DNA from: Octopus vulgaris
Lineage: Eukaryota
Assembly: GCA_951406725.2 (NCBI GenBank)
Contig: OX597822.1
Span: 15,314,001-15,378,000, forward strand
Direction of reading: 5' to 3'
Length of the DNA: 64,000 nt
The translations under genes were made by a program, and so were the position numbers. Shown here piece after piece: positions 4,896 to 33,272 of this stretch; the stretch's first letter is position 1, and every line of letters begins with the position of its first letter. Under the pieces are notes generated by a model. The model did no database searches. It was not told the DNA's origin and worked only from the letters and a program-made list of their open reading frames with translations.

Positions 4896-5875
4896 GTCAC
4901 TTATGTATGTGTCTTTGTGTTTGTCTTCCTCCCTGTCATATGGCAATTGGTGTTTCTTTTTATATTTACGTCCCTCTTGCTTTACAGAATGGCCAAGAAA
5001 ACGACAGCATACGCATGAGACTTGAAAAGTACTTCTGCGGACGATTTGTTCTTCTAAACCCTTCAAAGCGGTGCTCTGCATGGTCGCAGTCCAATGAATG
5101 AAACAAGTAAAACAAGAAAAAAGAAGATAGACCAACGAAATAGGTATATCTACGTACGTCTGTATTACAAGTGTTTCAGTTTAAACATCTACTGGCAAGG
5201 AAGCGTATATATTTCAGCCGGTCAGGAAATCTATTTTAAAGAGAACGAAATGATAGAATCAGTATTATGATAATGTTAGAATTCGCCTGATGCAGAAGTT
5301 AGGAATAATGATCTGGCGATCGTCGATACCAATTCATAGGCCGGAACGCGCGTGATTGTTGTGTTCAAGATGATTCTTAAATTATTTGATAGTCATAATT
5401 TTAGCGCTACCTTTTATCTTGTTCTCAAAATGTTGGTATTCTACGAGGACATCTAAATTACGTTTTGGTTAAATATTATTATTTCATATTGAATCGTTAA
5501 TTACCAATAACCATGAGAGGTTTTAATTAATTCTGAAGTTTTGAAATTCGTTTTGGCCCCTTCTTCTCTTGGGTAAAACTCTCTCAACTTCTATTCTCAT
5601 GATGTTATTTTTCTTCCTCTCACCGACTTTCCTCTTATTATTACAAATTCATTTTTAATCATTCTTAATTCTGTACAATGTTATGCACGCGATTGGAAAA
5701 TGGTAATTTGAGACAGTTCTACACACCCACATACACATCACACTCAATCAACACTCACGCACACAAACACACACATCAATGCATACATACATACATATGT
5801 GTGTGTTTGTATTACTAAGATAGAACATATAATAGAATTTCGTGTAGTAAAATGGTTTCCTGAAACGTATTATTT

Positions 5876-6048
5876 AGGCGTAGGCATGGGTGCATGGCTG
5901 CATGGATAGGACGTTCAGTGTTCAACCAAGTGGTTTGGAGTCTGTCCTACTACGCGGCACTTTGGTCAGGTGTCTTCTATTAAAGCGCCGGGTTGATAAA
6001 TACACTGTGAGTGAATTTGGGTGGATGACAGAAACTGTGGACGCACGT
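5876..6048 (+). mobile_element. Degenerate tRNA-derived SINE 5' half
   Basis: Similar to the SINE head and body at 60495-60642 (gtgtcttcta, gtgagtgaattt, gaaactg). Confidence 0.65.
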
Positions 6049-29456: not shown

Positions 29457-29989
29457 TGAGAATATTAAGAATATTAATCATTTCGATATTTAAAATCATT
29501 CATCAAATAACAATTAAAATAGAAATTAATGTAGAGTAACTTGCTTTTCCCTGTAAAAGAGACTATTAACCGAATAAGATGGTGCTTTCATTCGTTTCAA
29601 TACGTAATATCTAAACTTCTGTCAGCGAATATATAAATACATGCACACATATTTAAAAACATACATGCATACATATATATATCTTAATTGTCCCTGTCCT
29701 ACTTGTGTTACAAATTTTGACCCACCGCAAAATCCCAAATTATATTTAATTTGCTTTGCGGGAGCATCTGTTTTATCGAAAGGGTATATTGTTGTTAAAT
29801 TCTCGAAATACGAGACTAAAAAAACAGCCAACAACTGATGAAGGGTCGTTCTTTACATTCTTTGTCTTGTTTTCCATTTGTGTTTTTCGTTATTCGAAAA
29901 AATAGTTCATAATCCATGTACTCGTACTTCGTATATTTTTTTGTTGTACGTTTCGTGACGTCCCATGCCCACATATGTGTATATATATA

Positions 29990-32702
29990 TCAGAAAAATA
30001 AAAACGGAAAATACGCACACTTACATGGTTATAGTATACTTTTTAATGTATCGACCGGATTCGCAATCGCTATTCATGATACAATGTTTAATTTATATGA
30101 AAATATATTTTTTCTTAAGAAGAAAATGGGTCCATGTTGTTTATAATGAGATCCACGAGTGAATGATTTTACAAGTTGACAAGTAAAGGGAGGTAATTGG
30201 TTGTTATTATTGTTATTGGTGTGTGTAGGGGAGATAACTGTTTAGGTTTTGGGTGGGGAAAAATATGTGTACAGAAAGGAGACAGGTTTTAAAAAAAGGG
30301 GGCCTTGTTTAGTAGGGAATTTATGTACAGTGATGTAATGTGTAAAAATATAAAAATTGGTTATGCGTGCTTATTCAGACGCGTCTTGTATTTTTCAATG
30401 AAAAAAGTTTCTTTATTTAAGCGTTCTAGCTGAGAGATTGTGTCTTTGTACTGGTAGAAAGGGAAGACTGTAAAATTTGGTTTGATGTTACCTGCACATT
30501 TTTCTATGTGTTCACCAAGAGGGATTTGTCTGTATTGCGGGAAACGGATTTGCTCCTTATGCAGAGTAATTCTCTACCTCAAAATTAAACTCGTTTGTCC
30601 AATGTACTGATGACTGCAACCCGAGCAGGTTATTACATAAATTAGGTTCTCAGAGGCACAGGTGAAAGTAGTTTTAATTGTGAACCTCTGTCCTTGTTTG
30701 AAAAGGAAGTCCGAGCCTTCAAGCAGGTGGAGGCAGGTTCCACAGTTCGGGCGTCCACATTTTTCAACCGTTGGTTTCGTGGTTGTTTTGTAAAGCTTCG
30801 CATTTGTTAGTAGTCTCTTTAGCGATTTGTCTTGCATTTGATGAGTTTGTGTGTTTTCAGGGTGTCGTTCATTTTTGGATCTCTAGTTAGTAAAGGGAGA
30901 GTTTGCACAATAGTGTTGAATGCCTCACTGTTTCTGGGGTTGTGTGTTGATATAAAAAGTAATGTTTTGGTTTGAGGTGTGGTGCTATGTTTTTTTGTTC
31001 TTAGTGTTTTTGTGTCTAATTGTTTGGCACGTTTAATTCCCTCGTCGATAAGAGAGGGTGGATATTGTCTTTCAATAAGTGTTGCTTTGAGGTCTTGAAG
31101 ACGAAGGTCCCGAGTTGTTCTATCAGACACTATTGTGCAGATCCTTTTTGCTAAGTTAAAAGAGATGTTTATTTTTATGTGTTTCGGGTGGCATGAGTTA
31201 AAAAGAAGATATTGTTTTTGCGTCATTTGTTTTATAATAAATGTCAGTTATGATTTCATTGTTAACCTTTTTATCATGATGTCTAAAAATGGAAGTTGTT
31301 CTTTATTATATTCCATTGTGAATTGAATGTTACTATTTATGTCATTTAGTGTTGTTTTGAAATCCAAAAGTTTGTCGATGTTCTCCTTCCAGATGATAAA
31401 AGAGTCATCCAAGTATCGCTTCCAATTTTCTCTTATGTAGAAGTAAAATGGGTAACCATATTTCTGAAGCGATACTTCATATAAGGTGAATCCAAAACAG
31501 CCCATTATTAGATTCGCAAGAACAGGAGCTGCTTTCGTCCCATCGCAATTCCGCATTTCTGACGATAGTATGTGTCCTCAAACAGGAAATAATTGTTCTG
31601 AAGTGTAAATTTTAAGGATTCAATAATAAAGGTCTGGTTTATGCGTTCCGGGAGGACTTGGGGGTACTTTTCCAACCAGAATTTAATTGCTTTCATTCCA
31701 TAGTCATGGGGGAAGATGGTGTAAAGATTGATAACATCGAGGGTGACCAATACTGCTTCTTCATTAATCGTTTTTGGTAGGTGTTCTAACATGTCTAAAT
31801 CATCCCTAATAAAGCTTTTGATGTATTTCAGCAAGGGTTTCAGTAGGATGTTTAGAAAATTGCTCAGTCGGTGGGTTTCACAGGCTGGCGCAGCTACAAT
31901 GGGTCTTAAAGTCAAGTCTTCTGGCGTTTGGATGTTTATATATTTGCCTAGTGATTGTTTGCAGGCTTCATTGATTATCTTGCTCTTGTGTATTTTAGGG
32001 AGGCCGTAAAAAAGACTTGGTTTACATTTGAAGTTCGTGATGTAGCCTGTTTCTTTTTCTGTCAGGCCTTTTCCATGTAGGAGAATTAAGGATACAAGAT
32101 TTTTCATGGTTTTTTATTGTTTATAGTTTATAATTTTTTCGTAGAAGACCTCGTTTTCTAATATGGAAAGTACTAGTTTTTTATAGTGTTCTGTGTCCAT
32201 CAGAACTACAGCACTTCCTTTGTCAGCTTCTGTAATTGTCAGGTCTGTGTCGTTTTTTAGTTCAGTCAGATTTTTCCATTCTAGATTGTTGAGGTTAGGA
32301 TTAATTTTTCGTTTAATTTTTCGTGTAGGGGAAATTTTGGATATGGTTGCAGTAGTCATCCAGTGTTTTATTCCTACCCATTCTCTATCTAATAACAGGA
32401 ACTACCCATCTATTAAAAACACTAGAATAAACCAGCCTAGAATAAACAGTTATCTCCCCTACACACAACAATAACAATAATAACAACCAATTTCCTCCCT
32501 TTACTTGTCAACTTGTAAAATCATTTACTCGTGAATCTCATTATAAACAACATGGACCCATTTTCTTCTGAAGAAAAAATATATTTTCATATAAATTAAA
32601 CAGTGTATCATGAATAGCGATTGCGAAACCGGTCGATACATTAAAAATTATACTATAACCATGTAAGTGTGCGTATTTTCCGTTTTTATTTTTCTTATAT
32701 AC
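29990..32702 (-). mobile_element. Neptune-type Penelope-like retroelement, 5'-truncated and frameshifted, with an inverted pLTR
   Basis: ORF pieces 30574-32359 give EADKGSAVV, FYGLPKIHK, LRPIVA, GIAMG, WKRYLDDSF, the Cys linker CGRPNCGTC and GIY-YIG NLIYVITC..YIGQT. 29990-30243 is mirrored at 32443-32700; both ends lie at or near TA runs. Confidence 0.95.
32602..32642 (+). ncRNA. Minimal hammerhead motif with A3-U8 core variant in the pLTR (second copy at 30045-30085, minus strand)
   Basis: agtgtatc-ATGAATA-gc.gatt.gc-GAAAC-cg-GTC-gatacatt; both pLTR copies carry ATGAATA. Confidence 0.75.
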
Positions 32703-32840
32703 ACTACAATCTACCACGTGGGGACAACCGAAATTCCTCTGTTCTGTTACTACTACTATATATATATATATACGCATATATGTAAGTATGTACATATACG
32801 TATGCATATATGCATATATATATATATATATATGTATATA

Positions 32841-33272
32841 TATTATTCAAATAAATTCCAACTCTGTTTTTCATGTTTTATTTATATTCTTTTTAATATC
32901 AACGTAGGATATAGAATGTATAGTATAATAAATATATAGTAAAATGAAATGAAGTATTGATTGTCTTATTGAATAGATGAAACATTGAATATCAAATATT
33001 AAGGGACTAGTATACTTTCTTGCATTTAAGCAGTCTTCAAGGTTCCAGGTTCTGTCACAACCTGGGACCTTGAAGATTGCTTAAATGCAAGAAAGTATAC
33101 TAGTCCCTTAATATTTGATATTCAATATTTCATCTATTCAATAAGACAATCAATACTTCATTTCATTTTACTATATATATATTATTTATACTATATATTC
33201 TATACTCTACATTAATATTATAAAGAATATTAATAAAACAAAAAAACAGAGTTGGAATTCCTTTGAATAATA
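32841..33272. mobile_element. ~210-bp-arm palindrome with head-to-head hammerhead motifs, TA-flanked (PLE pLTR-like)
   Basis: Arms 32841-33051 and 33059-33272 are near-perfect reverse complements. Confidence 0.9.
33064..33107 (+). ncRNA. Hammerhead motif with an 8-nt CTTGAAGA core strand (mirror copy at 33003-33046)
   Basis: gggac-CTTGAAGA-ttgc.ttaaat.gcaa-GAAAG-tata-CTA-gtccc. Confidence 0.75.

What the first reader, a model, noticed from the sequence alone, without database searches (positions are those of the whole stretch)
32602..32642. A3-U8 minimal hammerhead fixed in both pLTRs of a protein-coding Neptune-type PLE
Seen: both inverted pLTR copies read TGTATC-ATGAATA-GCGATTGC-GAA(A/T)CCGGTC-GATACA, so the variant core predates the duplication. 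Stem I is 6-8 bp, stem II is 2 bp, stem III is the palindrome ACCGGT, and the triplet is GUC. The copy at 30045 has GAAT, a later lesion. Inference: the element transposed with a non-canonical core that probably works only as a dimer.
Basis: partly seen in the sequence, partly recalled or inferred. Interest (0 to 1): 0.75.

Follow-up and report, generated by a model that had tools for sequence, protein, structure and literature searches.

The report
Flipped-core minimal hammerhead in Penelope elements
Over a thousand copies of a jumping gene in this animal genome carry a tiny hammerhead RNA motif whose central base pair is A-U instead of the usual C-G; it likely cuts itself only slowly, as a pair and probably with protein help, but cutting is untested.

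Summary
Observation confirmed. The motif lies at 32604-32640 (+) and 30047-30083 (-). Corrections: 32604 is in an inverted 5' end-copy, antisense to the ORF. The sense copy is the one with the GAAT lesion, and the ORF here is broken and 5'-truncated.

A3-U8 is family-wide: 37 of 37 close copies, and 1160 genome matches against 17 control. Related Penelope-like lineages carry U3-A8 (1817 matches, partly a retrozyme). An RT tree nests A3-U8 inside U3-A8, so the 3:8 pair flipped once by a double change. Stem I covaries; helix II is only 2 bp.

This is a real minimal type-I hammerhead homolog of a Neptune-like element. A dimer is likely needed, since helix III forms only between two palindromes. 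Against essential cleavage: no copy ends at the cut site, a U3-G8 subfamily also spread, and published mutagenesis rescued only G3-C8.

Minimal dimeric PLE hammerheads and U3-A8 are published. A3-U8 was in none of 56 published examples, but Lunse 2017 could not be read. The scan's notes show other core variants elsewhere, not A3-U8. New variant of a known kind.

The parts
32604..32640 (+). Minimal type-I hammerhead motif with A3-U8 core, intact, in the inverted end-copy (A3 32610, U8 32615, predicted cut after C17 32634); antisense to the ORF
30047..30083 (-). Same motif in the sense 3' end of the element; private A15.1U lesion at 30059 breaks GAAA and the helix III palindrome
32443..32758 (+). 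Inverted, 5'-truncated copy of the element's 3' end, including the tail
32702..32758 (+). PLE 'tail' (about 57 nt), present on this end only, followed by (TA)n
29986..30360 (-). 3' UTR / pseudo-LTR end of the main copy, short end, running into a TA tract
30361..32379 (-). 5'-truncated, frameshifted ORF: DKG motif, RT, thumb, CX4CxxC linker, GIY-YIG-type endonuclease with CCHH
   Evidence: Pfam RVT_1 and GIY-YIG on the closely related open copy L166
32380..32442 (.). About 63-nt junction between main and inverted copy that does not align to three family copies

Best explanation
This is a minimal type-I hammerhead motif with an A3-U8 core, fixed in the pseudo-LTR of a Neptune-like Penelope retroelement lineage, and it likely self-cleaves slowly after the GUC as a dimer, probably helped by the element's protein. 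Shown: position, family-wide fixation, covarying stem I, 2-bp helix II and palindromic helix III. Inferred from a tree: one U3-A8 to A3-U8 flip. Inferred mechanism: the monomer cannot close helix III (2-nt loop), so two motifs pair through their ACCGGU palindromes into a double hammerhead. The 3:8 pair positions the ribose of residue 8, whose 2'-OH is the proposed general acid, so the base can change if pairing is kept. Cleavage would trim or circularise precursor RNA but would not be required for each insertion.
For: A3-U8 in 37/37 and 73/74 copies. Genome counts: A3-U8 1160 vs A3-other 100; U3-A8 1817 vs U3-other 130. The A3-U8 RT clade (16 of 45 rows, SH-aLRT 95) is nested between two U3-A8 lineages. 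All 6 stem I pairs and the 3:8 pair show both-side changes; covariation score 0.308 vs at most 0.097 for slid controls. Between A3-U8 sublineages 22-24 of 25 core letters match while upstream flanks are 50-77% identical. The double-hammerhead fold is the dimer MFE for 3 of 7 tested motifs and within 2.5-3.5 kcal/mol for 3 more. A 359-bp retrozyme in the same genome has C3-G8 and U3-A8 versions with the same helix III. Published: min-HHRs cleave weakly and only as multimers (PMC4209133); the Anolis PLE hammerhead cleaves only with protein and needs the 3:8 pair (PMC11167929).
Against: No cleavage data. None of 74 copies ends at C17; they run on to two fixed ends about 62 or 120 nt downstream (many were picked for full-length match, but the loci were not and also run on). 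A U3-G8 wobble subfamily spread to about 49 listed places. In a type III hammerhead only G3-C8 rescued activity among all double mutants of this region (PMC9901934). The pair flip is a single event. The shuffles ignore relatedness. The three lineage-B rows are long branches. No direct-tandem A3-U8 pair and no full-length open ORF of this lineage was seen. For the window's own subfamily an alternative dimer scores 2.5 kcal/mol better.
Confidence: 0.58

Rival explanations
1. The motif descends from a hammerhead but is now practically inactive. It is kept as a protein-binding, dimerisation or packaging structure next to the reverse-transcription start sites.
For: Copies run through the cut site. 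Helix II is cut to 2 bp, shorter than all 56 published examples. U3-G8 subfamily and an odd junction in the youngest family. Anolis hammerhead mutants still insert in vitro, and no RNA-seq ends were found at the cut site (PMC11167929).
Against: The 3:8 pair belongs to the catalytically active fold, yet it is kept through a double transversion. G5, A6, A9, G12-A14 and H17 are kept across lineages about 55-70% identical in protein.
Confidence: 0.3
2. A neutral relic: the core drifted in a master copy and was amplified without selection, and A-U complementarity is luck.
For: Only one flip was observed, in an AT-rich genome. Copy numbers reflect a few founders.
Against: The core is far better kept than its flanks between sublineages. 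Stem I has compensatory changes. No large A3-A8 or U3-U8 family appears among the listed matches.
Confidence: 0.1
3. Chance resemblance to a hammerhead.
For: Loose patterns do mislead here: most of 1040 C3/G3 matches are an antisense stretch of a LINE RT frame without stem I.
Against: Position in the PLE 3' end, stem I covariation, homologous U3-A8 and C3-G8 motifs, and 0.0 hits in random controls.
Confidence: 0.02

Closest known systems
Minimal type-I hammerheads (min-HHR) of metazoan PLE pseudo-LTRs (Cervera and de la Pena 2014, PMC4209133; read: text parts 1-2 of 4, supplement parts 1-2 of 3)
   Same: Type I topology, short helix I, G10.1-C11.1, palindromic helix III, location in the pLTR, second copy on the opposite strand at the 5' end of truncated elements, U3-A8 variant known.
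   Different: A3-U8 is in 0 of the 56 aligned examples (53 C3-G8, 2 U3-A8, 1 U3-G8 by my count). Helix II is 2 bp (3 bp or more there). There is no extra nucleotide between 9 and 10.1.
Small dimer-cleaving hammerhead variants of PLEs (Lunse, Weinberg, Breaker 2017, PMC5785218; not held; seen only as a citation and as summarised in PMC6765202)
   Same: Very short palindromic stem III, dimeric cleavage, PLE association.
   Different: Could not check whether A3-U8 is listed there. This is the main gap in the novelty claim.
Anolis Poseidon (PAc) hammerhead (Frangieh 2024, PMC11167929; read: parts 1-2 of 4)
   Same: PLE hammerhead upstream of two RT start sites that define a one-sided tail; the same two-end pattern is seen here.
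   Different: C3-G8 core, Poseidon clade, 30-40-bp tail; activity shown (protein-assisted, dispensable for insertion in vitro).
Natural U3-A8 hammerheads (Perreault 2011, PMC3088659; passages read)
   Same: Natural covariation of the 3:8 pair.
   Different: Only U3-A8 is reported in the passages seen.
Neptune-clade PLEs (Craig 2021, PMC8557442; passages read)
   Same: C-terminal GIY-YIG, DKG, CX2-5CxxC linker, CCHH, (TA)n targets, inverted 5'-truncated copy, one-sided tail.
   Different: Tail about 57 nt rather than 30-40; not placed against named Neptune or Nematis references.

Membership tests
PLE minimal type-I hammerhead | Literal core CUGANGA | tested here: not met
   Core is A3-U4-G5-A6-N7-U8-A9
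PLE minimal type-I hammerhead | Watson-Crick pair between positions 3 and 8 | tested here: met
   A-U here, U-A in sister lineages, C-G/U-A in a retrozyme; a U-G subfamily exists
PLE minimal type-I hammerhead | GAAA box, A15.1-U16.1 and NUH triplet | tested here: met
   36 of 37 copies GAAA, GUC triplet; not met in the 30047 copy
PLE minimal type-I hammerhead | Helix I closing the motif, with covariation | tested here: met
   6 of 6 pairs with both-side changes, 76% of cells paired, 16 sequences
PLE minimal type-I hammerhead | Helix II with G10.1-C11.1 | tested here: met
   G-C in 16 of 16, but only 2 bp, nearly invariant, so no covariation support
PLE minimal type-I hammerhead | Helix II of 3 bp or more and an extra nucleotide after A9 (typical, not universal) | tested here: not met
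PLE minimal type-I hammerhead | Palindromic helix III allowing a dimer | tested here: met
   ACCGGU self-duplex -8.3 kcal/mol; lesioned form -6.3; dimer folds
PLE minimal type-I hammerhead | Located in the pLTR, sense to the RT-EN ORF | tested here: met
   About 260-350 nt behind the last aligned ORF residue in A3-U8 copies
PLE minimal type-I hammerhead | Site-specific self-cleavage | not testable with these tools
   Only contigs, no raw RNA reads, were available
Neptune-clade PLE | RT with DKG followed by C-terminal GIY-YIG with CCHH | tested here: met
Neptune-clade PLE | CX2-5CxxC linker finger | tested here: met
   C-x4-C-xx-C before the endonuclease; Nematis has a reduced linker (PMC8557442)
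Neptune-clade PLE | (TA)n targeting, inverted 5' copy and one-sided tail | tested here: met
Neptune-clade PLE | RT phylogeny with named Neptune and Nematis references | not tested
   The homologs carry no clade names

The most novel reading that the evidence does not exclude
The first natural A3-U8 hammerhead: an active ribozyme with the 3:8 pair that mutagenesis failed to rescue and a 2-bp helix II, made functional by dimerisation plus the PLE protein. One genome's PLE/retrozyme system would then hold a natural series C-G, U-A, A-U, U-G at the active-state pair, invisible to CUGANGA-based searches.
Probability: 0.35. Interest if true: 0.62.

Novelty: new variant of a known kind. Interest (0 to 1): 0.42.

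Why it matters
Whether PLE hammerheads are working catalysts is open: activity is weak, protein-assisted and dispensable in vitro. A lineage that flipped the active-state 3:8 pair by two transversions, next to U3-A8, U3-G8 and C3-G8 relatives in one genome, gives a natural allelic series to test that directly. It also shows that standard descriptors and Rfam miss about 3000 such motifs in this genome, so 'no hammerhead' calls for PLE families need relaxed cores.

Tried and rejected
Rfam scan: no hammerhead hit, only microsatellite/miRNA noise.

Pfam on the window's four broken ORF pieces: nothing significant; an open relative was used instead.

Metagenome scan for outgroup loci with their hammerheads: 2 distant loci, neither with a motif, so the state outside this genome's lineages is unknown.

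Search for a family copy continuing past the tail into a full-length tandem: none among 67 matches, and the pattern was poorly selective. The tally undercounted through a regex fault and was redone. The first fold was off by one base and was redone. MAFFT misaligned the 19-sequence set with different loop lengths, so pairs were counted on 16 equal-length motifs.

The apparent large C3-U8 family was rejected as a LINE antisense coincidence. Seven distant RT loci (L154-156, L162-165) and L169-170 showed no motif with my patterns; not followed.

Sequencing runs: no RNA holder listed, contigs only, so no evidence on expression or cut ends.

Papers not held: Lunse 2017, Przybilski and Hammann 2007, two Nelson and Uhlenbeck 2008 papers. 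Searches for A3-U8 in print showed no report among the listed papers, but text search misses figures. File 1 of the Cervera supplements was unreadable and part 3 of file 2 was only keyword-searched.

Full report
Observation. On the + strand the stem I arms are 32604-32609 and 32635-32640, the core A3-U4-G5-A6-A7-U8-A9 is 32610-32616, helix II is two G-C pairs around a 4-nt loop, then GAAA, the palindrome ACCGGT and C17 at 32634. The second copy is 30047-30083 on the - strand, within a 259-nt 97% inverted repeat. A relaxed descriptor finds one hit in the window (the lesioned copy fails it) and none on average in 100 random sequences. Rfam reports no hammerhead.

The element. The ORF lies on the - strand, about 32379 to 30361, in several frames with stops. 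[quoted passage not shown] A close open copy (L166, 635 aa) hits RVT_1 and GIY-YIG, and its homologs include bivalve proteins at 45-46% identity. The structure is a 5'-truncated main copy with an inverted end-copy at its 5' side. Family copies stop at two fixed points, about 62 and about 120 nt after C17, and run into (TA)n. In the window the inverted copy has the long end and the sense copy the short one. This matches the PLE tail and inverted layout described in PMC8557442 and PMC11167929. Neptune is supported by the linker and TA targeting, but was not tested by a tree with named references. So the flagged motif is antisense to the ORF, and the sense motif carries A15.1U, seen in 1 of 37 copies. 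The genome is 2.8 Gb in 227 contigs; 'octopus-like' comes from earlier scan notes and my inference, not a test.

How fixed is A3-U8. All 37 aligned close copies have A3 and U8. Of 74 distinct family copies, 73 are A-U and 1 is C-U. With the helix III part held fixed, genome counts (reversed control in brackets) are: A3-U8 1160 (17), A3 with other 8 100 (28), U3-A8 1817 (10), U3 with other 8 130 (44). The A3-other matches look like scattered point mutants. The U3-A8 count mixes a PLE lineage and a retrozyme. C3-G8 with a G/C helix III gave 90 (41), about 43 of them a 359-bp tandem retrozyme and none with the 2-bp helix II (my count). The 1040 C3/G3 matches are mostly a coincidence: 20 of 21 new loci examined are the antisense strand of a LINE-type APE-RT frame with no stem I (LINE type recalled from motifs). 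Contigs from four runs labelled as four organisms cover the motif with no listed change at positions 3 or 8 (one run has only 2 contigs).

Evolution. RT-EN trees (FastTree; IQ-TREE quick search, 45 rows after dropping 8 duplicate places and 1 frame-error row) give one A3-U8 clade of 16 rows (SH-aLRT 95). It holds the window's lineage and an older lineage with a different stem I and N7. Its sister is a young, largely intact U3-A8 family, and the next branch is another U3-A8 lineage containing a U3-G8 subfamily. The root comes from database homologs whose hammerheads are unknown. The simplest reading is one U-A to A-U flip, needing two transversions. It is one event, and the older rows are long branches. 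On 16 equal-length motifs all six stem I pairs and the 3:8 pair show both-side changes; covariation is 0.308 against 0.113 shuffled and at most 0.097 slid (relatedness is not controlled). Between the two A3-U8 lineages 22-24 of 25 core letters are shared, and in the alignment the fixed differences fall on N7 and loop II, while upstream flanks are 50-77% and downstream 55-95% identical.

Mechanism. A 2-bp helix III with a 2-nt loop cannot close in a monomer (standard RNA geometry), while two ACCGGU palindromes pair at -8.3 kcal/mol. The double-hammerhead fold is the dimer MFE for 3 of 7 motifs, 2.5-3.5 kcal/mol above it for the window family and the retrozyme, and 5.9 above for the lesioned copy. 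The 2'-OH of residue 8 is the proposed general acid (PMC6155905, passages) and residue 8 pairs with residue 3 in the active fold (PMC3884650, passages), so a base swap is tolerable in principle. I therefore infer slow, dimeric, probably protein-assisted cleavage after GUC, as shown for the Anolis element (PMC11167929).

Against. None of 74 copies ends at C17: 45 have the long end, 27 the short, and two others also pass the site (60 loci were selected by full-length or tail match, but the loci were not). A full-length copy of the U3-A8 sister family begins about 50 nt upstream of an intact 5' motif, so uncleaved RNA was a template. All 12 distinct two-motif arrangements of A3-U8 copies are inverted; direct tandems were seen only in U3-A8 families (L152, L197). 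A U3-G8 subfamily spread to about 49 of the 100 places listed. In pairwise mutagenesis of a type III hammerhead only G3-C8 rescued this region (PMC9901934, passages).

Novelty. Minimal dimeric hammerheads in PLE pLTRs, the opposite-strand second copy and U3-A8 are published (PMC4209133; PMC3088659). In the 56-row alignment of PMC4209133 I count 53 C3-G8, 2 U3-A8, 1 U3-G8 and no A3-U8, and no helix II under 3 bp. Searches showed no A3-U8 report among listed papers. Lunse 2017, the paper most likely to list it, was not readable. The scan's notes hold other core variants but no look-alike of this stretch.

Verdict: real, family-wide, a new variant of a known kind; activity untested. Interest 0.42.

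Noticed in passing
L151-L153, L157-L161 (e.g. L153 about 5860-5905): A young PLE family with many near-identical open 750-780-aa frames carries a U3-A8 hammerhead with a 4-5-bp helix II and an odd junction: five-letter GAAAA before the palindrome, so either an extra A with a GUU triplet or no free N17.
   Followed up: partly
L091-L099, L007, L115-L120: A 359-bp tandem retrozyme with the same helix III palindrome occurs in C3-G8 and U3-A8 versions, often in inverted arrays like PLE insertions.
   Followed up: partly
L040, L043, L194-L196: PLE subfamily with a U3-G8 wobble core, about 49 listed places, several as inverted pairs 2-3.7 kb apart. An A8-to-G change could come from RNA editing followed by reverse transcription (speculation).
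   Followed up: partly
L200, L202-L206, L213: Small repeat family with U3-G8 core, 2-bp helix II with 3-nt loop and the same palindrome, but no evident stem I and no linked RT passing the filters.
   Followed up: no
window 30044-30092, runs X10 and X4: Single low-depth contigs show clustered T>C on + (A>G on the element's sense strand), as expected of A-to-I hyper-editing of inverted-repeat RNA; they hit N7 and loop II but not A3. May be error.
   Followed up: no
window 32663-32668 (+), about 30 nt after C17: A GTAAGT splice-donor-like word conserved in the family just downstream of the hammerhead.
   Followed up: no
L152 (minus strand, 5' part): Full-length sister element has an upstream 367-aa open frame and a C-rich stretch before the RT frame, suggesting a long N-terminal region or frameshift.
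   Followed up: no
window 32925-33185: Near-perfect 130-nt-arm palindrome (96%, 1-nt spacer) just beyond the element.
   Followed up: no
L173-L193: Young high-copy LINE (APE-RT) whose antisense strand mimics a hammerhead core pattern; a false-positive source for motif scans.
   Followed up: yes
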